64,000 nucleotides of DNA, taken from Candidatus Wolfebacteria bacterium (GTDB taxonomy: Bacteria; Patescibacteriota; Minisyncoccia; UBA6257; UBA9933). The stretch spans positions 168,959-232,958 of the forward strand of contig JANLIR010000002.1 in assembly GCA_024654025.1 (NCBI GenBank), read 5' to 3'. Positions 536 to 40,925 of this stretch are shown here, piece by piece. The notes beneath the pieces were generated by a model that did not search any database, was not told where the DNA came from, and saw only the letters and a list, made by a program, of their open reading frames with translations. Both the position numbers and the translations under genes were made by a program. Each line of letters starts with the position of its first letter. Position 1 is the first letter of the stretch.

Positions 536-3064
536 ATGAAAAAAAATAAATTACCGGAAAACAATCAAAGCAGCCCTCGCGTCGGCTCAGGAATCGAAAA
601 GCGAGAAATATCCGATGAACTTCAAGAGTCTTATCTTGATTACGCGATGTCGGTTATTGTTTCGCGCGCCTTGCCGGACGTCAGAGACGGCCTAAAGCCG
701 GTTCAGCGAAGAATTCTTTGGGCAATGTGGGAAAGCGGTCTTAGAGCGAGTGCCAAACATAGGAAATCCGCCTCAGTTATCGGAGACACATTAAAAAGCT
801 ATCATCCGCACGGCGATATTTCCGTGTACGACGCGTTGGTTAGGATGGCTCAGGATTTTTCTCTTCGCTACCCCTTAATTGACGGACAGGGTAATTTCGG
901 CAGCCAGGACGGAGATTCAGCAGCCGCTTATAGGTATACCGAGTGCCGTTTATCCAAAATAGCCGAAGAGCTTCTTGTTGATATAGAAAAGGATACGGTT
1001 AATTGGCTGGATAATTATGACGGCACAACCAAAGAGCCGGCGGTGCTTCCTTCCAAGCTCCCCCACCTTCTTTTGAACGGTTCTTCGGGTATCGCGGTGG
1101 GTATGGCGACCAGTATTCCTCCGCATAATCTTTCTGAAGTTATTGACGCCACTCTTCATTTAATTGATTCGCCCAAAGCCACAATCGAGGACTTGCTGAA
1201 ATTTATTCAAGGCCCTGATTTTCCGACTGGCGGTATTATTTACGATAAAAAATCCATAGCCGAAGCGTATTCTACGGGTCGAGGTTCTATACCGGTCAGG
1301 GCGGTGGCGGAAATCGAAGAAAGAAAAAAGGATAATTTCAATATAATAATCACCGAAATCCCCTATCAAGTTAACAAGTCCGAGCTTTTGATAAAAATGG
1401 CCGGCCTTGTTACCGATAAAAAAATTCAAGGCATAAAAGATCTGCGCGACGAAAGCGATCGCGACGGGTTAAGGATTGTCGTTGAGCTTAAAAACGACGT
1501 GCCCGCGCAAAAAATATTAAACCAGCTTTACAAGCACACCGACCTTCAAAAGAATTTTAATTTAAACACAATCGCGCTGGTCGGCGGGCTTCAGCCCCAG
1601 CTTCTTTCGCTGAAAGAATTTTTAGCCCAGTATATCGAACACAGAAAAGAAGTTGTTCGCCGAAGAGCTGAATTCGAGCTTCGCAAAGCCAAAGAGCGGG
1701 CGCATATTTTAGAGGGTCTTGCGAAAGCGCTTTCGGTTATCGATAAAGTCATCGAGACGATTAAAAAATCAAAAGACAAAGAAGAGGCGCGCAAAAATTT
1801 AGTTTCCCGTTTCAAGCTTACCGAAATTCAAGCCGAAGCGATTTTAGAAATGAAGCTCTCGACTTTGGCGGCGCTTGAAAGGCAGAAAATAGAAGACGAG
1901 CTCAAAGAAAAAAGAAAATTAATAAACGAACTGGAAATTCTTTTGAACAGCTCGCAGAAAATTTTAAAAGTCATAAAAGACGAACTTTCAGAAATCAAAA
2001 AAAATTACGGCGACGAAAGGCGCACTAAAATTGTCGCCGGCGGCCTCACGGAATTTAAAGAAGAAGATTTGATTACCGAAGAAGAAGTCGTTATCACTCT
2101 TTCTCAAAACGGATACATAAAAAGAGGAAGCCCCGATGTTTTTAGAAGCCAGCAAAGAGGAGGAAAGGGACTTATCGCTTCCGAAGTCGGCGAAGAAGAC
2201 GCATTGACGCATTTTATCGCGGCCAACAGCCACGACAATATTTTGTTTTTCACCGAACGCGGCCGGGTTTTCCAGACAAAAGTTTATGAAATCCCCTCAG
2301 CTTCCAGGCAAGCTAAAGGCAAAGTTATACAAAACTTTTTAGAAATTCCACCTGACGAAAAAGTCAGCGCCGTAGTCGCTTACGCGCCGACTAAAAATCA
2401 ACAACCGCCAACCCATAATTATTTAGTAATGGCCACTAAAAACGGAGTCATCAAAAAAACTCCGCTTCTGGAATTCGCCAATATCAGACGCACTGGAATT
2501 ATCGGCATCAATTTGCAAAAAGGAGATGTGCTTAATTGGGTTATGTCGTCTTCGGGTAAAGACGAAGTTTTAATAGTAACCGCCTTGGGACAGTCAATAA
2601 GATTTAAAGAAAGCCAATTGCGGTCTATGTCCCGAATTGCCACAGGCGTTAAGGCTATCAAGCTCAAAAAAGCCGCGCCCCGTAGCGAACAGGGTTCTGC
2701 TACTGGGGATGATTTTGTCGTTGGACTTGATATAATAAGCACAGAGTCGAAAGAAAAAATTTCTAAGCTAAAAGTTTTAATTGTTACGGAAAACGGTTTT
2801 TCTAAACAAACTTCGCTTGGCCAATACAAAGTTCAGAAGCGAAGCGGTAAGGGAATTAAAACCGCTAAGATTACTTCCAAAACCGGAAGAATTGTCAGCG
2901 CGCAAGTAATTTTCGAAGCGACAGAACTTTTGGCGATTTCTTCCAAAGGGCAGATTATTAAAACGCCTTTAAAAAAAATCAGAACCGCCGGTCGCGCCAC
3001 CTCCGGAGTAAAAATTATGACACTTAAAGGAGGCGACAAATTGGTAGGAGCGGTTACGCTGTAA
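536..3064 (+). CDS. gyrA: DNA gyrase subunit A
   Basis: N-terminal [30 protein letters not shown] and HPHGD motifs, active-site AAAYRYTE, C-terminal beta-pinwheel repeats. Confidence 0.97.
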
Positions 3065-16303: not shown

Positions 16304-16687
16304 TCAGAGATTTATATTCTTGTAATGAGAAATGATGGGGTTATTAGTGTTGTTTAGGGTTATAGCAATTAAATCAATTCGCCACCCCATTTCCTTATTT
16401 ATTAAGCCTTGATTAGCGCCTGAATATAAAGAGGCGGTTCTGGCTACTTTTTTAAGCTTAGAAGCAGTTAATTGATCCTCGGGTTTTAGGTTGAAATTGG
16501 TAGATTGTTGGAGGGTTTTGACTTCTATAAAAACAAGAGTTTTGTCGTGGTCTTTAGCTATGATATCTATCTCTCCCCACGGCTTCCTATAATTCCGCTC
16601 AATAATCCGGTATCTATTGTTGATTAAGCACTCGCAAGCCAAATCTTCGCCTAATTGCCCAGTTTTTTGTTTATCTGTTGAATCCAT
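16304..16687 (-). CDS. YraN-family (UPF0102) endonuclease-like protein
   Basis: GQLGEDLACECL...YRKPWGEIDIIAKD...LVFIEVKT. Confidence 0.8.
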   Translation of the reverse strand: MDSTDKQKTGQLGEDLACECLINNRYRIIERNYRKPWGEIDIIAKDHDKTLVFIEVKTLQQSTNFNLKPEDQLTASKLKKVARTASLYSGANQGLINKEMGWRIDLIAITLNNTNNPIISHYKNINL

Positions 16688-16767
16688 CCAGTATTTTTGT
16701 TAGTATTTTATAAATGTTGCTCGGGTAAACATTATTTAAATTGTACCACGTGTAATACGATAAACAA

Positions 16768-17199
16768 ATGCAAACAAAAAAAATTACAGCAGAATATATT
16801 AGGGGCTTTATTGAGGGCGTGGGAACTTTTACTTTCACAACCTCGTCACGGGGTTTCAATAAAAAGGTTAAAATACCAACTTTTCAATTAAGAATGAATA
16901 TTCGAGATAAACGGTTAATTGAATTGATTAAAGGACATCTCGGACTTAAAAATAGGGTTTATATGTATCATTATCCGGGAACTGATGGCGCAAAACGAGG
17001 GCCACAAGCGATGTTAATAGTCCGAGAAATAGGTAATCTGAAAAATATAATCATCCCTTTCTTTTACGATAAGCTGGTTGGGTATAAAGCAGCCCAATTT
17101 AATAAGTGGCTTGAAAGAATAGGTAAAGACTCGGAAGTGCCAGAGGGATTTAAGATTCTATACCGTCTTCATAAATCCGGTTGGTTTTCAAAGAAATAG
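16768..17199 (+). CDS. free-standing LAGLIDADG homing endonuclease (single-motif type)
   Basis: AEYIRGFIEGVGTFTF is LAGLIDADG-like. 143 aa. Confidence 0.7.
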   Translation: MQTKKITAEYIRGFIEGVGTFTFTTSSRGFNKKVKIPTFQLRMNIRDKRLIELIKGHLGLKNRVYMYHYPGTDGAKRGPQAMLIVREIGNLKNIIIPFFYDKLVGYKAAQFNKWLERIGKDSEVPEGFKILYRLHKSGWFSKK

Positions 17200-17227
17200 C
17201 ATTAAAATGGTTTAGTAGGTAAAAATA

Positions 17228-17255
17228 CTAATTCGGCAATGGTCATTGCCGAATT
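17228..17255. repeat. 12-bp-stem palindrome
   Basis: AATTCGGCAATG gt CATTGCCGAATT. A related hairpin lies at 17450-17485 (AGTTCGGCAATCC ... GGATTGCCGAACT). Confidence 0.7.
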
Positions 17256-17483
17256 AAAATAGGGGTTTTGCCGAATTAAAATGTTGGGAATGTTTTACAA
17301 CCAACACTTTGAATCAAATTTTAAGGGTCTAAAGTGTCAAAAATGTTTATCAAGTTTTGATAAACAATCTTTTACGACAGATTAGCTTAAAATTGGGCTA
17401 AAAAGTGTTTATCAAGTTTTGGCAAACATTTTCGGAAAGTTTAGTAAATAGTTCGGCAATCCGTTATTTGATGGATTGCCGAA

Positions 17484-18137
17484 CTAATAGGACGCGAAAA
17501 TACCCTTTGCCCACCCCCGGATTTTTAAAGATAGCCCAACATTACAGATGTAGATTTCAAAAGTTCCATAAGGAAGGCCCTCTTTTTTGGATTTTGTGGC
17601 TCTTTTTACTGAGAGTTTGAAAAACTGCTTTAAAGGGATGCCGGAAATTTCCGACCAGTATTTTTCTGTTCCCCGATGATCAAGGTGGGGATAGATATAA
17701 ATATGCCCCCGGAATTTCTGTTCCGGAACCTCACAAACATCCCTAAAAAAGGCCATCATTAACCTAACTATATTCGGGTCGCTGTTTGAGAACCGGACAA
17801 GGCCTTTTTGGGTTTTCCCACACCCTGCCCAATACAAAACCGAGCCAATTAGCCAAAGCTCACTTCTAGTTATTTTCTTTACCTGCTTTTGCGCTTGGTC
17901 GATAAGGTTTTCTCGTGTAGCTGTTTCCCGAGCCAGTCTGGTTGCGCGTCTTTTTTCCACTACCGAAAGCTTTACGGCGCGCTTTGATAGCGTTTTCTCC
18001 TGGTCTTTAGTTAGCGCGATGTTGCGGACCCATAAGCTCGCGCTACTTTTTGAAACGTTTAAGTTTTTCGCGATCTCGTTCAGAGAGTAACCATAAGCTC
18101 GGAGTTCTCGCGCTTTTTGTTTTTCAGCCTGCTTCAT
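17484..18137 (-). CDS. HTH-domain protein with degenerate LAGLIDADG-like C-terminal domain
   Basis: N-terminal YSLNEIAKNLNVSKSSASLWVRNI (HTH). C-terminal LWLIGSVLYWAGCGKTQKGLVRFSNSDPNIVRLMMAFF resembles homing-endonuclease cores. Confidence 0.5.
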   Translation of the reverse strand: MKQAEKQKARELRAYGYSLNEIAKNLNVSKSSASLWVRNIALTKDQEKTLSKRAVKLSVVEKRRATRLARETATRENLIDQAQKQVKKITRSELWLIGSVLYWAGCGKTQKGLVRFSNSDPNIVRLMMAFFRDVCEVPEQKFRGHIYIYPHLDHRGTEKYWSEISGIPLKQFFKLSVKRATKSKKEGLPYGTFEIYICNVGLSLKIRGWAKGIFASY

Positions 18138-18218
18138 AATCGAACTGATGAAGATATTTACTATGCTGAATATAGCATACAGGTTCGATTATTACAATAA
18201 AAAGAAGTTTGATTTCTG

Positions 18219-18330
18219 TGCGCGTTGAGGGGATTGAACCCCCGACCTGTCGCCTAAGGCGACCGTTCTAACCAACTGCTCCGACGCTTCGGTCGGAGCC
18301 CCGACTTCGTATTAGCGAACGTCGGAGAGC
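18219..18330 (-). pseudogene. tRNA-like remnant or aberrant tRNA
   Basis: The minus strand has a normal D-loop/T arm/acceptor 3' strand (..AGTTGGTTAGAAC G GTCGC cttag GCGAC AGGTC GGGGG TTCAATC CCCTC AACGCGC A). The anticodon loop is only 5 nt and there is no matching 5' acceptor strand. It is preceded by interlocking hairpins GCTCTCCGAC/GTCGGGGC and GCTCCGAC/GTCGGAGC. Confidence 0.3.
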
Positions 18331-18339
18331 TAAAAATTG

Positions 18340-18568
18340 TGGACGCGCCCCGACTCGAACGGGGGACCTTCTCGGTGTCCCGCACAAAGTGGGTGCTATA
18401 GGATTCGAACCTATGACCTTCGCAGTGTAAATGCGACGCTCTAACCAACTGAGCTAAGCACCCACTTTAAGCGGGATTGCGATTTGTTTTTAAAAATTTT
18501 ATATCAAATTAAATTTTTAGACAAATCGGGAATAAACGAGACGCTCTAACCAACTGAGCTACGCGTCC
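18340..18568 (-). tRNA. interrupted tRNA-Val (outer gene); exons 18535-18568 and 18340-18379, 155-nt insert
   Basis: 5' half GGACGCG TA GCTC AGTTGGTTA GAGC G TCTCG TT. 3' half GACAC CGAGA AGGTC CCCCG TTCGAGT CGGGG CGCGTCC A. Joined, they form a perfect 74-nt cloverleaf. Confidence 0.6.
18390..18463 (-). tRNA. tRNA-Val(UAC), nested inside the interrupted tRNA-Val
   Basis: GGGTGCT TA GCTC AGTTGGTTA GAGC G TCGCA TTTACAC TGCGA AGGTC ATAGG TTCGAAT CCTAT AGCACCC A. No encoded CCA. Confidence 0.9.
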
Positions 18569-19184: not shown

Positions 19185-19206
19185 CTCCTTATTATAGCAA
19201 AAAAAG

Positions 19207-19278
19207 TGCGAGTGGCAGGGATCGAACCTGCGACGGCCGTCTTATAAGGGCGGTGCTCTACCACTGAGCTACACTCGC
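19207..19278 (-). tRNA. tRNA-Ile(UAU)
   Basis: GCGAGTG TA GCTC AGTGGTA GAGC A CCGCC CTTATAA GACGG CCGTC GCAGG TTCGATC CCTGC CACTCGC A. One C-A mismatch in the anticodon stem. Confidence 0.75.
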
Positions 19279-37350: not shown

Positions 37351-38127
37351 ATGGCTAAAGTTTTTGCCGTTTGTAATCAAAAAGGCGGGGTAGCTAAGAC
37401 AACTACTAGCGTCAATTTATCAGCTTATTTGTCGCTCATGGGGAAAAAGGTTTTGCTTATTGATTTTGATCCTCAAGCGAACGCCACCGCCAGCTTAGGC
37501 CACTTGGCCAAAGAAGACCAAGCCGGAATTTATCACGGCATTTTAGGTTACTCTTCGCCGGAAGAAATAATTCTTCCGACCGCGCTTTTTAACCATCATC
37601 TAATCCCTGCTAGCCAAGGATTAGCAGGCGCCCTTATTGAGCTGGTTGACCAGCCGGAAAGGGAATCATTTTTAAGAAAATTTATAAACAGAATCCGCCA
37701 TTTGTATGATTATATATTTGTCGATCTTCCACCGTCCTTGAGTTTGCTTACCTTAAACGGCCTGGTTGCTTCTGATGAGGTTTTAATCCCCATTCAGTGC
37801 GAGTACTTGAGTTTGGAAGGGCTTGGCCAGCTTTTGGAAACAGTCAATATGATAAACAGGAATTTAGGCAAAAATATAAAAATTGCCGGCGCTGTTTTAA
37901 CAATGTACGACAAAAATAGGGAATTGAATCGTGAGGTTGCGCAAAATATCAGAACTTATTTTCCCCACACTGTTTTCAAAAGCGAGATACCTCGCTGTGA
38001 TGCTTTGGCTGAGGCGCCGAGTTTCGGCAGGCCTGTTGTTTTATATGACCCTAAAGCCGCCGGCGCTCAAGCTTACGAAAAATTAGCAAGGGAAATTATT
38101 GAATTGGAGAAAGGAATAATCGAATAA
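37351..38127 (+). CDS. parA: chromosome partitioning ATPase ParA/Soj
   Basis: Deviant Walker A NQKGGVAKTTT, IDFDPQANAT, FVDLPPS. Confidence 0.92.
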   Translation: MAKVFAVCNQKGGVAKTTTSVNLSAYLSLMGKKVLLIDFDPQANATASLGHLAKEDQAGIYHGILGYSSPEEIILPTALFNHHLIPASQGLAGALIELVDQPERESFLRKFINRIRHLYDYIFVDLPPSLSLLTLNGLVASDEVLIPIQCEYLSLEGLGQLLETVNMINRNLGKNIKIAGAVLTMYDKNRELNREVAQNIRTYFPHTVFKSEIPRCDALAEAPSFGRPVVLYDPKAAGAQAYEKLAREIIELEKGIIE

Positions 38128-38131
38128 ATAT

Positions 38132-39208
38132 ATGTTAGGCAAAGGTTTAGAATCTTTAATACCAAAAAAATCTCAAAACGACGATTCGTCGAGTGGTTCT
38201 TTTGATGATCAGAAAACAGATTCTCCGGTTGGCGGAGGTGTTGGGTTTAAAATAGAAAACAAAATAAAAGATATTTCCTTTAGCGAAAAAGAAGAAGAAA
38301 GAAAAGAACTTTTTCAAAAATCGCAAGAAAAAGATCAAGAACAAATTGTAAAACCAGGCAAACACCACCAGGAAGCGATTTTTCATATAGAAACCGAAAA
38401 AATAAAATCTAATCCGCACCAACCGCGAAAACATTTTGACGAGGAATCGTTAAAAGAATTAGCGGATTCAATCCGTGAATTCGGAATTATCCAGCCGCTT
38501 ATAGTTTCTAAAATTGAAAAAGAAACCGATTTTGGCACAGAGGTTGAGTATCAGCTCATTGCCGGAGAACGTCGTTTGATGGCTGCTAAACTTGTGGGCC
38601 TTGAAAGAGTGCCAGTTGTTATAAGAAGATTTTCTCAAAAAGCCGAAGGGCTTGAAGTGGCAATTGTGGAAAATCTTCAGCGAGCTGACCTTAATTCTAT
38701 TGAGGTGGCGCGCGCTTACGCTAAACTTCAAGACGAATTCGGTTTGACTCAAAGAGAAGTCGCCGCTCGAATGGGAAAGAGCCGTGAAACAATCGCCAAC
38801 ACATTACGACTTTTAAATTTGCCAAGCGAAATTCAAGACGCTTTGGCGGATAATAAAATAAACGAAAGCCAGGCGAGGATGCTTTTGGTGGTTGATGATC
38901 ATATAGCGCAGAAAAAACTTTTTGAGGAACTTTTGAACAAGGGTTTAACAGTTCGAGAACTTCGCTCTCGCATTAGGCGTGCCAAGCCGAATTCAGAAAG
39001 CCAAAAAGAAGAAGCCGGCGGTTTTCAAGACGAAGAAACTCACCAGCTTGAAGAAAGATTGGAACAAACGCTCGGCACGCGGGTGAAAATAGACAAGAAA
39101 AATACGTCAGCTGGCGGAGGCGGAAAAATTGTTATATCTTTTTATTCTCCGGAAGAGCTTTATGGTATCGTAAAAAAACTTAATCCGACAGATGAAAATT
39201 TCCAATGA
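38132..39208 (+). CDS. parB: chromosome partitioning protein ParB/Spo0J with long low-complexity N-terminus
   Basis: IKSNPHQPRK, GIIQPLIV, LIAGERRLMAAK, HTH TQREVAARMGKSRETIANTLRLL. Confidence 0.9.
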   Translation: MLGKGLESLIPKKSQNDDSSSGSFDDQKTDSPVGGGVGFKIENKIKDISFSEKEEERKELFQKSQEKDQEQIVKPGKHHQEAIFHIETEKIKSNPHQPRKHFDEESLKELADSIREFGIIQPLIVSKIEKETDFGTEVEYQLIAGERRLMAAKLVGLERVPVVIRRFSQKAEGLEVAIVENLQRADLNSIEVARAYAKLQDEFGLTQREVAARMGKSRETIANTLRLLNLPSEIQDALADNKINESQARMLLVVDDHIAQKKLFEELLNKGLTVRELRSRIRRAKPNSESQKEEAGGFQDEETHQLEERLEQTLGTRVKIDKKNTSAGGGGKIVISFYSPEELYGIVKKLNPTDENFQ

Positions 39209-40925
39209 ACATATTTCTAAAATTCTTCGAGAGATAGCGGTGTATTTGGAAATGCAAAATGTTCCATTTAAGCCGCGCGCGTACGAAAAAACCGCCATCG
39301 CGGTTGCCGACCTTTCCGAAGATTTGCACGCCCTTTATGAGAAGGGCGGCATTAAAGCTATCGAAGAAATCGAGGGTGTAGGCGTTTCCATTGCCGAGAA
39401 AATTGAAGAAATAATAAAAACCGGATATTTAAAATATTACGACCAGCTGAAGAAAAAAACTCCGGTTGACGTGAGTTCTTTAATGTCAGTTGAGGGTCTT
39501 GGGCCCAAAAAAATCAAAAAACTTTACCAAGAGTTGAAAATTACAAATGTTGAGGAATTGGAAAGATCGGCAAGAGCCGGAAAAATCAGAAGTTTGGAGG
39601 GATTTGGCGAAAAAACCGAGGAAAATATTTTAAAAAGTTTGGAATTTTTACGGCAAGCAGGCGGCAGATTTATTCTGGGCTATATAATGCCCGATATCAG
39701 GAAAATCGAAAGCGATTTAAAAAAATTAAAAGAAGTTAAAAAAATCATTGTTGCCGGTTCAGTCCGCCGCAGAAAAGAAACAATAGGTGATGTTGATATT
39801 TTGATTGTTTCTAGCAAGCCCGCTCCGGTTATGGATTTCTTTGTGAATATGCCAAATGTCGCCAGAGTCGTGACTCACGGAAGCACTAAGTCGGCCGTAA
39901 AACTGAAAAACGGGCTTGATGTTGATGTCTGTGTTGTAGCGGAGAAATCCTACGGCGCGGCTTTAAATTATTTTACCGGCTCTAAATACCACAACATCGC
40001 TTTACGGGAAATCGCGATCAAGTATGGGTTTAATCTAAATGAATACGGGTTGTTTAAAGGTAAGAAAACAATTACTGGGAAAACCGAAGAAGAGATTTAT
40101 AAAAAATTAGGGCTTGATTATATTGAGCCGGAAATGCGTGAAAACGAAGGGGAAATTGAGCTCTCTAGCGAACATAAACTTCCTAAATTGATTGGCTATA
40201 ATGATTTGCAAGGGGATTTGCAGATTCAAACTAATTGGACTGACGGTTCAAACACAATAGAAGAATACGCAGAAGTTGCGATTAAAAAAGGATTGAAATA
40301 TATCGTTATAACTGATCATACAAAAAGGTTGGCAATGACTGGCGGACTTGACGAGAAAAAACTTTTAAAGCAAATCGCTGAAATAGGAAAAATTAATGAA
40401 AAGTTATCAGCTAAGGGCTACAAGTTTAAAATTCTTGCCGGCAGCGAGGTGGATATTTTGAAAGACGGAACTTTAGATTTAAAAGATGAGGCTTTAAAAA
40501 AACTTGATGTTTGCGGGACCGCAATCCATTCTTATTTTAATTTACCAAAAGAAGAACAGACAAAAAGAATAATTCGCGCCATGGAAAATCCGCACGTTGA
40601 TATAATTTTTCATCCCACCGGAAGAATTATTAATCGTCGACCAGCTTATGAGGTCGATATTGACGAGATAATTAAAGCCGCCAAAAGAACCAACACGGTT
40701 TTAGAAATTGACGCATTTCCGGACAGATTGGATTTGAAAGACGACTATATTAGAAAATGTGTGTTTGCCGGAGTGAAATTAGCCATTGATAGCGACGCGC
40801 ACTTGGTCAGCCATATGGATTTTCTGGAATTCGGCATAGCCCAAGCTCGCCGCGGCTGGGCCACTAAAGACGATATTATAAACACAAGGCCGGTAGAAGC
40901 AATGCTTAAATTATTAAAGAAATAA
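39192..40925 (+). CDS. polX: family X DNA polymerase with C-terminal PHP domain
   Basis: HhH motifs (IEGVGVSIAEKI, VEGLGPKKIKKL), GSVRRRKETIGDVDIL nucleotidyltransferase motif, PHP domain (ITDHT..., DSDAH). Confidence 0.9.
   Translation: MKISNEHISKILREIAVYLEMQNVPFKPRAYEKTAIAVADLSEDLHALYEKGGIKAIEEIEGVGVSIAEKIEEIIKTGYLKYYDQLKKKTPVDVSSLMSVEGLGPKKIKKLYQELKITNVEELERSARAGKIRSLEGFGEKTEENILKSLEFLRQAGGRFILGYIMPDIRKIESDLKKLKEVKKIIVAGSVRRRKETIGDVDILIVSSKPAPVMDFFVNMPNVARVVTHGSTKSAVKLKNGLDVDVCVVAEKSYGAALNYFTGSKYHNIALREIAIKYGFNLNEYGLFKGKKTITGKTEEEIYKKLGLDYIEPEMRENEGEIELSSEHKLPKLIGYNDLQGDLQIQTNWTDGSNTIEEYAEVAIKKGLKYIVITDHTKRLAMTGGLDEKKLLKQIAEIGKINEKLSAKGYKFKILAGSEVDILKDGTLDLKDEALKKLDVCGTAIHSYFNLPKEEQTKRIIRAMENPHVDIIFHPTGRIINRRPAYEVDIDEIIKAAKRTNTVLEIDAFPDRLDLKDDYIRKCVFAGVKLAIDSDAHLVSHMDFLEFGIAQARRGWATKDDIINTRPVEAMLKLLKK

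What the first reader, a model, noticed from the sequence alone, without database searches (positions are those of the whole stretch)
16768..18137. Two free-standing homing-endonuclease-like genes with operator-like palindromes, directly beside the aberrant tRNA cluster
A 143-aa single-motif LAGLIDADG protein and a 217-aa protein (HTH plus a degenerate LAGLIDADG-like domain) converge on a spacer. The spacer contains two strong hairpins sharing TTCGGCAAT (17228-17255 and 17450-17485). It also contains a duplicated 16-mer TGTTTATCAAGTTTTG (17344-17359 and 17406-17421), which is itself part of the palindrome TGTTTATCAA..TTGATAAACA.

Neither gene sits inside an intron or intein. Their position next to the interrupted tRNA-Val and the tRNA-like remnant suggests they may have promoted the local rearrangements.
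Basis: partly seen in the sequence, partly recalled or inferred. Interest (0 to 1): 0.5.

Follow-up and report, generated by a model that had tools for sequence, protein, structure and literature searches.

The report
Two parked homing-endonuclease-type genes
Two unrelated homing-endonuclease-like genes lie back to back in a Wolfebacteria genome because each family has its own fixed site, one inside a conserved array of parS-like DNA boxes next to yraN and the other beside a tRNA gene, and both copies here have lost their catalytic residue.

Summary

- **ORF1 (143 aa)** is a true LAGLIDADG_1 protein. Its family lies next to yraN in 69 of 86 loci. It is followed, and often preceded, by a box-rich non-coding region I call R.
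- **The pairing is incidental.** The two genes are neighbours only in this clade.
- **The spacer is R, not a private operator.** Its motifs are enriched 14-20x after ORF1-family genes. R-like sequence persists in a relative lacking ORF2 and in yraN loci lacking ORF1; one carries seven near-perfect parS sites.
- **Both window copies lack the catalytic glutamate** yet show dN/dS of 0.12-0.24.
- **The neighbouring split tRNA** is a tRNA-Val(UAC) cut in its anticodon by an insert carrying another tRNA-Val(UAC).

Endonuclease activity and the function of R are inferred, not shown.

The parts
16304..16687 (-). yraN (UPF0102 nuclease-like gene), the conserved divergent neighbour of ORF1-family genes
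   Evidence: Pfam UPF0102, E = 1.2e-22. Adjacent and divergent to ORF1-family genes in 69 of 86 loci.
16742..16767 (.). Upstream cis-elements of ORF1: the 16-bp imperfect palindrome TGTACCACGTGTAATA, followed by the class-1 box CGATAAACA that runs up to the ATG
   Evidence: Read from the sequence. AAAC lies within 0-3 nt of the ATG in 26 of 56 non-redundant loci. A 16/17-bp TGT..ACA palindrome lies upstream in 20 of 56.
16768..17199 (+). ORF1: 143-aa single-domain LAGLIDADG_1 protein. Its motif reads YIRGFIEGVGTF, with the catalytic Glu replaced by Val
   Evidence: Pfam 36.7 bits. PDB match 4lq0, E = 2e-10. 117 of 142 family members keep Glu. dN/dS 0.12-0.13.
17229..17256 (.). Hairpin 1: inverted pair of class-2 boxes (TTCGGCAAT / ATTGCCGAA). 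A third direct copy of TTGCCGAATTAAAAT follows at 17268
   Evidence: -15 kcal/mol, z -5.1. Flagged as terminator-like on the minus strand only. ATTGCCG.A boxes are enriched 14x after ORF1 genes.
17291..17428 (.). Core of the box region R: the 16-mer TGTTTTACAACCAACA (17291-17306) and two 23-bp palindromes of TGTTTATCAA half-sites (17344-17366 and 17406-17428)
   Evidence: Exact repeats. About 90% conserved in L001, L004, L086 and L137. Class-1 boxes TGTTT..C[AG] occur at 8.6 per kb against 0.43 per kb background. TGTTT-N13-AAACA is a preferred geometry in this clade.
17449..17486 (.). Hairpin 2: second inverted pair of class-2 boxes, overlapping the ORF2 stop codon
   Evidence: -23 kcal/mol (minus strand) and -27 kcal/mol (plus strand), z -8.5. 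The boxes are invariant and the inner stem varies among relatives.
17484..18137 (-). ORF2: 217-aa protein with an N-terminal HTH, a long helix and a C-terminal LAGLIDADG-like domain. Its motif reads LIGSVLYWAGCGK; the family consensus is YWAEGxK
18162..18197 (-). Putative ORF2 promoter (TTGTAA, 17 nt, TATATT). The palindrome TATGCTATATTCAGCATA (18179-18162) overlaps the -10 element
   Evidence: Consensus scan. The sequence is conserved in L137, L001 and L004. Function is inferred.
18219..18336 (-). Broken tRNA-Val(UAC) copy. Its 3' part (18281-18219) is orthologous to the single tRNA-Val next to ORF2 in L137. Its D-arm is interrupted by a roughly 50-nt insert and its anticodon loop is shortened
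   Evidence: Rfam tRNA 22.2 bits, below threshold. Alignment to L137 and L001.
18340..18568 (-). Outer tRNA-Val(UAC), with halves at 18568-18533 and 18377-18340. It is split between anticodon nt 35 and 36 by a 155-nt insert (18532-18378) that carries the intact tRNA-Val(UAC) at 18463-18389
   Evidence: The joined halves fold as a perfect tRNA-Val(UAC). The inner tRNA scores 77.5 bits. The insert plus junction is 98% identical to L086.

Best explanation
The locus holds two unrelated, free-standing homing-endonuclease-type genes. Each occupies the insertion site typical of its own family, and the sites happen to be adjacent in this Wolfebacteria lineage.

**ORF1.** It belongs to a Patescibacteria family of single-domain LAGLIDADG_1 proteins, of the kind that act as homodimers. 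The family is lodged inside a conserved array of short DNA boxes (R) next to yraN.

**ORF2.** It belongs to a very large, unnamed family with an N-terminal HTH and a predicted LAGLIDADG-like domain. The family is lodged 27-122 bp from a specific tRNA gene, which in Patescibacteria is tRNA-Val(UAC).

**Inferred mechanism for intact family members.**
- A dimer cuts a conserved, roughly palindromic DNA target.
- For ORF2 the target would be the anticodon arm of the tRNA gene. For ORF1 it would be a parS-like box or the yraN-R junction.
- Repair from a gene-carrying allele then copies the gene, and the linked tRNA allele, into that place.

**The window copies.** Both have lost the catalytic glutamate but remain under purifying selection. 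They most likely act now only as sequence-specific DNA binders.

**The spacer.** Its palindromes and hairpins are R itself. R is an origin-proximal array of boxes resembling parS half-sites, and it exists independently of both genes. It is best read as a protein-binding, centromere-type element. Its two strong terminal hairpins probably also stop the converging transcripts.

**Shown:** the family anchors, the conservation, the residue losses and the selection.

**Inferred:** cleavage, the targets, and which protein binds R.
For: **ORF1 identity.** Pfam LAGLIDADG_1 above cut-off, and matches to solved enzymes.

**ORF1 anchors.**
- yraN is adjacent in 69 of 86 loci.
- Class-1 boxes are enriched 20x and class-2 boxes 14x in the 450 bp after ORF1. 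46 of 54 loci qualify.
- Boxes abut the ATG and follow the stop codon.

**ORF1 mobility.**
- ORF1 is 48% identical to L001 but 91% to L004, while Mur ligase is 88% and 70% and ORF2 is 79% and 71%.
- yraN loci without ORF1 exist.

**ORF2 anchor.**
- A tRNA lies within 250 bp in 72 of 80 species genomes.
- It lies upstream at a median of 72.5 bp in 66 of 80: Val(UAC) 40, Gly(UCC) 18, Met(CAU) 4.
- Phage homologues sit in tRNA arrays directly after tRNA-Gly(UCC) and tRNA-Val(UAC).

**Selfish-element signs for ORF2.**
- Split or truncated copies in L045, L051, L056, L057 and L085.
- Absent from the close relative L086.
- tRNA-Val fragments beside ORF2 in L015, L023 and L028, and beside the ORF2-less tRNA-Val of L086.
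- Tandem-fused family members fit a dimeric working unit.

**Catalytic residue.** Glu is kept in 117 of 142 ORF1-family and 180 of 189 ORF2-family members, but lost in the window copies.

**Selection.** dN/dS is 0.12-0.24, against 0.05-0.18 for five of the six neighbouring genes.

**R is independent of both genes.**
- It is retained in L086, which lacks ORF2.
- R-like sequence lies upstream of yraN in L169-L171, which lack ORF1. L171 has seven parS sites with two or fewer mismatches at a 48-bp period.

**Chromosomal setting.** The window encodes ParA and ParB 20 kb away and GyrA at its start. It has no canonical parS with three or fewer mismatches.

**tRNA break.** It lies exactly at the centre of the palindromic anticodon arm.
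Against: - No cleavage has been shown for either family.
- The model's strand order (alpha-beta-alpha-beta) fits the canonical alpha-beta-beta-alpha-beta-beta-alpha fold only if the first hairpin is very short.
- ORF2 keeps its tRNA neighbour, and its orientation class, across whole clades. This also fits a vertically inherited host gene with a tRNA-related function.
- Purifying selection on catalytically dead copies argues for a host function rather than pure selfishness.
- The window's palindromes are 23 bp (8+7+8). They are not 16-bp parS sites, so ParB binding is not obvious.
- L004 keeps the Glu in ORF2 yet sits next to a tRNA-Val with the putatively sensitive CTCG/CGAG stem.
Confidence: 0.6

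Rival explanations
1. ORF2-family proteins are domesticated DNA-binding regulators comparable to WhiA. They control or insulate the adjacent tRNA gene or operon, and are not mobile endonucleases. The tRNA linkage would be functional synteny.
For: - N-terminal HTH.
- A conserved palindrome lies over the gene's own -10 element.
- Orientation classes follow clades.
- dN/dS is 0.23 in a clade that lost the Glu before it diverged.
Against: - 95% of the family keeps the Glu of YWAEGxK, and FSNSDP is conserved, as expected of an enzyme.
- Homologues lie inside phage tRNA arrays.
- Pseudogenes occur, and the gene is absent from a close relative.
- The partner tRNA differs by subfamily: Val, Gly, Met, Glu or Asn.
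Confidence: 0.2
2. R is the binding array of ORF1 itself. ORF1 would be a domesticated LAGLIDADG protein that recognises the TGTTT..C boxes. It would autoregulate through the box at its ATG, and serve R in some function such as partition, nucleoid organisation or a programmed break.
For: - ORF1 and R travel together even where yraN is not adjacent.
- Boxes abut the ATG and the stop codon.
- GACAAACA-N4-TGTTTGTC palindromes have the 4-bp-centre geometry of homodimeric LAGLIDADG targets: 16 sites in 15 loci against 2 in 355 kb.
- Box variants change with lineage, as ORF1 does.
- ORF1 is constrained without its catalytic residue.
Against: - R-like arrays exist without ORF1 in L169-L171. In L171 the boxes are canonical parS, the ParB site.
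- Box orientation and spacing differ between lineages (N4 tail-to-tail, N6 or N13 head-to-head). This fits poorly with one fixed dimer geometry.
- 82% of the family keeps the catalytic Glu.
Confidence: 0.25
3. R is the chromosomal replication origin (oriC), or a structured non-coding RNA gene.
For: - Clustered short boxes occur in both orientations. TGTTTCACA is one mismatch from the relaxed DnaA box TTWTNCACA (consensus from my own knowledge).
- Some loci carry TGTGGATTA or TGTGGAAAC. DnaA-like boxes are enriched 3.4x.
- gyrA and parAB are nearby.
- For the RNA reading: stable hairpins and high sequence conservation.
Against: - GC skew does not switch sign at R in the way an origin requires. 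It is positive to the left and negative to the right, and it follows gene strand.
- The genes converge on R.
- No dnaA or dnaN lies next to R in any locus.
- No Rfam family matches.
- Box number, order and orientation vary freely between lineages, unlike a structured RNA.
Confidence: 0.1
4. The hairpins are simply intrinsic terminators of the two converging genes, and the 16-mer repeat is a chance duplication.
For: - Each hairpin lies within 30 nt of a stop codon and is very stable.
- Hairpin 1 is flagged as terminator-like on the minus strand.
Against: - Neither hairpin is followed by a U-tract on the sense strand of its gene.
- The shared TTCGGCAAT arms also occur as direct repeats, and in dozens of distant loci.
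- The repeat region is more conserved than the genes.
Confidence: 0.15

Closest known systems
Homodimeric single-motif LAGLIDADG homing endonucleases (I-CreI, I-MsoI, I-CeuI; Pfam LAGLIDADG_1). Also the LAGLIDADG genes in rRNA insertion sequences of CPR bacteria (PMC11270868)
   Same: ORF1 has the same domain and size class. Most family members keep the catalytic Glu. Incongruent alleles suggest mobility.
   Different: ORF1 is free-standing rather than intron-borne. It sits between yraN and a parS-like box array, not in rRNA. The window copy has Val in place of the catalytic Glu.
Phage T4 SegB, a free-standing GIY-YIG homing endonuclease inside the T4 tRNA gene cluster (PMC2330249)
   Same: ORF2-family genes also sit inside or beside tRNA gene clusters, including two phage tRNA arrays. 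The proposed mechanism matches: cutting tRNA-region DNA and co-converting the flanking tRNA genes.
   Different: The protein fold is unrelated (HTH plus LAGLIDADG-like, not GIY-YIG). The family is mostly chromosomal, in three bacterial phyla. Each subfamily is tied to one tRNA identity. No cleavage has been shown.
WhiA, a bacterial transcription factor built from degenerate LAGLIDADG domains and an HTH
   Different: WhiA has two LAGLIDADG domains and a C-terminal HTH, whereas ORF2 has one domain and an N-terminal HTH. There is no sequence similarity. 95% of the ORF2 family keeps the Glu.
ParB-parS chromosomal centromeres, and iterated plasmid centromeres such as F sopC (tandem repeats, each with a 16-bp palindrome)
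   Same: R boxes are variants of the parS half-site TGTTTCAC. L171 carries seven near-perfect parS sites at a 48-bp period. parAB lies 20 kb away.
   Different: The window's palindromes are 23 bp, not 16 bp. The array also carries unrelated class-2 boxes (ATTGCCGNA). Binding by ParB is untested.
Group I introns in Patescibacteria tRNA genes, inserted at anticodon position 35/36 (PMC13011429)
   Same: The outer tRNA-Val is interrupted at exactly 35/36.
   Different: The 155-nt insert is too short for a group I intron (184-894 nt in that paper) and matches no intron model. It carries a complete tRNA gene. That paper does not mention tRNA-Val.

Membership tests
LAGLIDADG_1 homing endonucleases (ORF1) | Match to the family profile above the curated threshold, and to solved members | tested here: met
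   PF00961 scores 36.7 bits against a cut-off of 23.1. 4lq0 E = 2e-10, 4efj 8e-10.
LAGLIDADG_1 homing endonucleases (ORF1) | Acidic catalytic residue at the end of the LAGLIDADG helix | tested here: not met
   The window copy reads FIEGVGTF, with Val. 117 of 142 family members have Glu.
LAGLIDADG_1 homing endonucleases (ORF1) | Site-specific double-strand cleavage of a 14-40 bp target | not testable with these tools
   Needs a biochemical assay.
Mobile homing endonuclease gene (behaviour), ORF1 | Present or absent at an otherwise conserved site, with a gene history differing from its neighbours | tested here: met
   yraN loci with an R-like region but no ORF1: L169-L171. ORF1 is 48% and 91% identical to L001 and L004, while Mur ligase is 88% and 70%.
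LAGLIDADG fold (ORF2 C-terminal domain) | Sequence-profile similarity to any LAGLIDADG family | tested here: not met
   Pfam, NCBIfam, PHROGs, PDB profile search and hhalign against the ORF1 family gave only HTH hits or nothing.
LAGLIDADG fold (ORF2 C-terminal domain) | Structural similarity to solved LAGLIDADG domains | tested here: inconclusive
LAGLIDADG fold (ORF2 C-terminal domain) | Conserved acidic residue closing the first helix | tested here: not met
   The window copy reads YWAGCGK. The family consensus is YWAEGxK, with Glu in 180 of 189 members.
Mobile homing endonuclease gene (behaviour), ORF2 | Fixed position beside a highly conserved target, patchy presence, and decaying copies | tested here: met
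   A tRNA lies within 250 bp in 72 of 80 loci. The gene is absent from L086, whose VTT gene is 92% identical. Split copies occur in L045, L051, L056, L057 and L085. Phage copies lie in tRNA arrays.
WhiA-type regulators (ORF2) | Two degenerate LAGLIDADG domains followed by a C-terminal HTH | tested here: not met
   One domain, with the HTH at the N-terminus.
ParB-parS centromere (region R) | 16-bp palindrome matching TGTTNCACGTGAAACA | tested here: not met
   No site with three or fewer mismatches anywhere in the window. Related R regions do have them: 15 sites in 5 of 54 loci against 2 in 355 kb background, and 7 in L171.
ParB-parS centromere (region R) | Cognate ParB encoded, and an origin-proximal position | tested here: met
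   ParA at 37351-38127, ParB at 38132-39208 and GyrA at 536-3064. The origin itself was not located.
ParB-parS centromere (region R) | ParB binds and spreads from the site | not testable with these tools
   Needs ChIP or EMSA.
Intrinsic terminators (hairpins 1 and 2) | G+C-rich stem followed by a U-tract on the transcribed strand | tested here: inconclusive
   The stems are strong. Only hairpin 1 on the minus strand passes the scan. There is no U-tract after either hairpin on its gene's sense strand.

The most novel reading that the evidence does not exclude
ORF2 may represent a previously unrecognised, very large family of dimeric HTH plus LAGLIDADG-like homing endonucleases, about 4,900 clusters at 50% identity. 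Their natural targets would be the palindromic anticodon arms of specific tRNA genes: Val-UAC, Gly-UCC and Met-CAU. They would spread linked, cleavage-resistant tRNA alleles across Patescibacteria, Actinomycetota, Chloroflexota and jumbo-phage tRNA arrays. In parallel, the ORF1 family would be a homing endonuclease whose niche is the chromosomal parS or centromere array. Both would exploit ultra-conserved non-protein DNA. The nested tRNA-Val in this window would then be a repair scar of such a cut.
Probability: 0.3. Interest if true: 0.8.

Novelty: new variant of a known kind. Interest (0 to 1): 0.6.

Why it matters
- **New source of rare-cutting enzymes.** If the ORF2 family cuts tRNA genes, it is a large untapped source of enzymes with natural, highly conserved targets.
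- **tRNA gene evolution.** It would be a driver of tRNA gene-cluster evolution, duplication and allele replacement in bacteria and phages. So far this is known essentially from T4 SegB.
- **A candidate centromere for CPR bacteria.** The box region next to yraN is a conserved cis-element. It may be the centromere of bacteria whose chromosome biology is almost unknown. It offers concrete sites to test with ParB or with the LAGLIDADG protein.
- **Entry point for studying domestication.** Both catalytically dead copies are under purifying selection. This allows study of how homing endonucleases become DNA-binding host factors.
- **Annotation.** Thousands of 'hypothetical protein' or 'predicted transcriptional regulator' entries could be renamed.

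Tried and rejected
- **The two proteins as a functional pair or heterodimer: rejected.** They are adjacent only in the window clade and show no profile similarity.
- **The spacer as a known RNA: rejected.** No Rfam hit at E <= 1.
- **oriC at the spacer: not supported.** GC skew and gene orientation argue against it, and no dnaA or dnaN is a conserved neighbour.
- **ORF2 as a transposase or integrase accessory: rejected.** Only the HTH resembles the Sleeping Beauty or IS630 HTH, E about 2e-3. There is no catalytic transposase domain.
- **The nested tRNA as a group I intron or as integrase-type att duplication: rejected.**
  - No intron model matches, and 155 nt is too short.
  - Both halves of the same tRNA flank the insert. 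An intact tRNA plus a displaced 3' remnant would be expected from integration.
- **'Immune' tRNA alleles: suggestive only.**
  - Only 4 of 44 ORF2-linked tRNA-Val genes have TCG..CGA anticodon stems, against 17 of 22 unlinked ones.
  - The two sets come from different lineages, and L004 is a counter-example. I do not rely on this.
- **Searches that could not be completed.**
  - The Foldseek afdb50 library was unavailable.
  - The first alignment was too diverse for the locus search.
Full report
**1. What is in the window**

The window comes from a Candidatus Wolfebacteria metagenome-assembled genome. The 217-aa protein is 100% identical to NUV83_00970, on a 248,723-bp contig.

All sequence features in the finding are present at the stated coordinates:
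- ORF1 lies at 16768-17199 (+), 143 aa. ORF2 lies at 17484-18137 (-), 217 aa. They converge on a 284-bp spacer.
- Two stable hairpins lie at 17229-17256 (-15 kcal/mol) and 17449-17486 (-23 to -27 kcal/mol). All their arms contain TTCGGCAAT.
- The exact 16-mer repeat lies at 17344 and 17406. The first copy forms a perfect 23-bp palindrome.
- No intron or other Rfam model matches the region.

**2. ORF1**

ORF1 is a genuine single-domain LAGLIDADG_1 protein:
- It scores 36.7 bits against Pfam, above the cut-off of 23.1.
- It matches solved LAGLIDADG enzymes down to E = 2e-10.

Its motif reads YIRGFIEGVGTF, so the catalytic acid is replaced by Val. 117 of 142 family members keep Glu.

Eighty metagenomic loci and the close relatives show that the family has a fixed address:
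- yraN (UPF0102) is the divergent neighbour in 69 of 86 loci.
- The 450 bp after the stop codon form a non-coding, box-rich region, which I call R.

**3. ORF2**

Only the N-terminal HTH is recognised by Pfam, NCBIfam, PHROGs and PDB sequence searches.

The fold evidence is as follows:
- An AlphaFold model built on 23 homologues has pLDDT 89.
- Foldseek against the PDB and hhalign against the ORF1 family give nothing.

The fold assignment is therefore probable, not secure.

Other family features:
- The consensus is LYWAEGxK...FSNSDP. Glu is kept in 180 of 189 members, but the window clade has Gly.
- The family is large, with 4,896 clusters at 50% identity at E <= 1e-10.
- Some members are 396-576 aa proteins with two or three full-length matches. 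I read these as tandem fusions, which would suit a dimeric working unit.

**4. ORF2's address is a tRNA gene**

Among 80 species-representative genome loci:
- 72 have a tRNA gene within 250 bp.
- 66 have one upstream of the start, at 27-122 bp (median 72.5 bp).
- The upstream tRNA is Val(UAC) in 40 loci (either orientation, Patescibacteria), Gly(UCC) in 18 (Actinomycetota), Met(CAU) in 4 (Anaerolineae) and Glu(UUC) in 2.

The only two viral homologues found lie inside phage tRNA arrays of 19 and 22 genes. They sit directly after tRNA-Gly(UCC) and tRNA-Val(UAC).

Other signs of a selfish element:
- Split or truncated copies occur in L045, L051, L056, L057 and L085.
- The close relative L086 lacks ORF2 at this position, although its VTT protein is 92% identical.

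This is the behaviour of a free-standing homing endonuclease gene. The nearest precedent is T4 SegB, which sits in the T4 tRNA cluster (PMC2330249), but the protein type is different.

**5. The two genes are not a pair**

ORF1 and ORF2 are adjacent only in the window, its close relatives L001-L006, and the fragment L137. They are not adjacent in 79 other ORF2 loci, nor in 79 other ORF1 loci.

The ancestral order appears to be yraN, then R, then one or more tRNAs. ORF1 is lodged at the yraN side of R. ORF2 is lodged at the tRNA side.

**6. The spacer is R, a conserved element in its own right**

Conservation:
- Its core is about 90% identical between the window, L001 and L004, while the flanking genes are 75-82% identical at the nucleotide level.
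- It is retained in L086, which has no ORF2.

Motif enrichment across 54 non-redundant ORF1 loci:
- Class-1 boxes TGTTT..C[AG] occur at 8.6 per kb in R, against 0.43 per kb elsewhere (20x).
- Class-2 boxes ATTGCCG.A are enriched 14x.
The TGTTTATCAA repeats are class-1 boxes.

Box arrangements:
- Preferred arrangements are lineage-specific:
  - AAACA-N4-TGTTT, with 16 sites in 15 loci against 2 in 355 kb.
  - TGTTT-N6-AAACA, a parS-like 16-mer.
  - TGTTT-N13-AAACA, the window's 23-mer.
- AAAC lies within 0-3 nt of the ORF1 start codon in 26 of 56 loci. A box follows the stop codon within 25 nt in 33 of 56.

Independence from ORF1:
- Three of four sampled yraN loci without ORF1 still have an R-like region upstream of yraN.
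- One of them, L171, carries seven copies of the canonical parS palindrome TGTTTCACGTGAAACA, with two or fewer mismatches, at a 48-bp period.

Chromosomal setting:
- The window encodes ParA and ParB at 37.4-39.2 kb and GyrA at 0.5-3.1 kb.
- It contains no canonical parS with three or fewer mismatches.
- GC skew follows gene strand and does not switch at R as an origin would.

I therefore read R as an origin-proximal, parS-related protein-binding array. It is not an operator belonging to the two genes. This reading is an inference. Binding by ORF1 itself is a serious rival.

**7. State of the window copies**

Both copies lack the catalytic Glu. For ORF2 the loss is shared by P0001-P0005, so it predates their divergence.

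Selection since then:

| Gene | dN/dS |
|---|---|
| ORF1 | 0.12-0.13 |
| ORF2 | 0.23-0.24 |
| yraN, Mur ligase, PPDK_N, and VTT against L086, L001 and L004 | 0.05-0.18 |

The VTT comparison against the near-identical fragment L137 gives 1.15. There dS is only 0.013 over 114 codons, so that value is not informative.

The two proteins are thus still under purifying selection, most simply as DNA binders.

ORF1 also shows allele incongruence. It is 48% identical to L001 and 91% to L004, while Mur ligase is 88% and 70% identical. This indicates replacement by a foreign allele at the same site.

**8. The tRNA cluster**

- The 'interrupted tRNA' is a tRNA-Val(UAC). Joining 18568-18533 to 18377-18340 gives a perfect tRNA.
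- The 155-nt insert lies between anticodon nucleotides 35 and 36. This is the centre of the palindromic anticodon arm. The insert carries the intact tRNA-Val(UAC) at 18463-18389.
- The 'remnant' at 18219-18281 is the 3' part of a third, broken copy. That copy is the orthologue of the single tRNA-Val next to ORF2 in L137, which is 95% identical at the nucleotide level.
- The intact copy has a CGCA/TGCG anticodon stem. The broken copies have CTCG/CGAG stems.
- L086 carries the same intact tRNA with the same 3' junction.
- Other ORF2 loci also carry tRNA-Val fragments. In L015 a 21-nt repeat of the tRNA 3' end follows ORF2 directly. Fragments also occur in L023 and L028.

These are compatible with repair scars after cuts in tRNA-Val genes. 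The nested arrangement is unique to this genome. The resident ORF2 is catalytically dead, so it is not the likely culprit.

**9. Comparison with what is known**

The accessible literature covers three related topics:
- LAGLIDADG genes inside CPR rRNA insertions (PMC11270868).
- Group I introns at position 35/36 of Patescibacteria tRNA genes (PMC13011429).
- SegB in T4 (PMC2330249).

My searches found no description of a tRNA-linked HTH plus LAGLIDADG-like family. They also found none of a LAGLIDADG gene in a parS-like array next to yraN. The library is incomplete, so this is absence of evidence only.

**10. Verdict**

Both genes are homing-endonuclease-type genes, and ORF2 is linked to tRNA-Val.
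- It needs three corrections. The genes are independent. The palindromes belong to a conserved host element. These copies are inactive.
- ORF1 is a new member of a known kind.
- The ORF2 family, and the genomic niches of both families, are new variants of a known kind.

Noticed in passing
window 18219-18568 (-): Three tRNA-Val(UAC) copies lie in 350 bp. One is split at anticodon nt 35/36 by a 155-nt insert. One is intact and lies inside that insert. One is broken, with a D-arm insertion and a shortened anticodon loop. The inner tRNA is flanked by the inverted repeats CCCGCTTAAAG / CTTTGTGCGGG, which extend its acceptor stem.
   Followed up: partly
L171 2138-2492 (upstream of yraN, no ORF1): Seven near-perfect canonical parS palindromes (TGTTTCACGTGAAACA) lie at a 48-bp period, followed by single TGTTTCACA boxes. 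The layout resembles the iterated centromere of a plasmid.
   Followed up: partly
L166 4001-4618 and L167 4001-4633 (IMG/VR contigs of 253 kb and 25 kb): Phage homologues of ORF2 (29-31% identity) sit inside tRNA arrays of 19 and 22 genes. They lie directly after tRNA-Gly(UCC) and tRNA-Val(UAC).
   Followed up: partly
tRNA-Val(UAC) genes in loci L001-L172: tRNA-Val genes next to ORF2 have very diverse anticodon stems: 33 different arms in 44 genes, and only 4 with TCG..CGA. Among tRNA-Val genes not next to ORF2, 17 of 22 share TCG..CGA. The comparison is confounded by lineage.
   Followed up: partly
Proteins P0315, P0323, P0324, P0325, P0327: ORF2-family members of 396-576 aa contain two or three full-length matches to the family profile. 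They look like tandem fusions, possibly single-chain versions of a dimer.
   Followed up: no
L086 700-1860: In this close relative the ORF2 position is occupied by a 212-aa predicted membrane protein of unknown origin. There is also a pseudo-tRNA with an insertion in its T-arm.
   Followed up: no
window 19206-19278 (-): A tRNA-Ile with anticodon UAU, conserved at the same position in the relatives (L001, L004, L086). It suggests AUA is decoded without lysidine.
   Followed up: no
ORF1-family loci, R regions (for example L104, L109, L138, L150, L164, L169, L170): A third conserved motif recurs in R in many lineages, roughly GTGTAGGTTTTAYGCGG..ATCGGGTTTT. It is neither a class-1 nor a class-2 box, and its role is unknown.
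   Followed up: no
L170 and L172: In yraN loci without ORF1, yraN is followed on the same strand by a gene of about 150 aa with unknown function, a dksA/traR-type zinc-finger gene and a comM/yifB-like Mg-chelatase gene. In ORF1 loci the same dksA-like and comM-like genes lie beyond R, on the ORF1 strand. This implies an inversion of yraN relative to them.
   Followed up: no
window 39192-40925 (+): A PolX-type gene (DNA polymerase beta thumb and HHH_8 domains) lies immediately after parAB.
   Followed up: no
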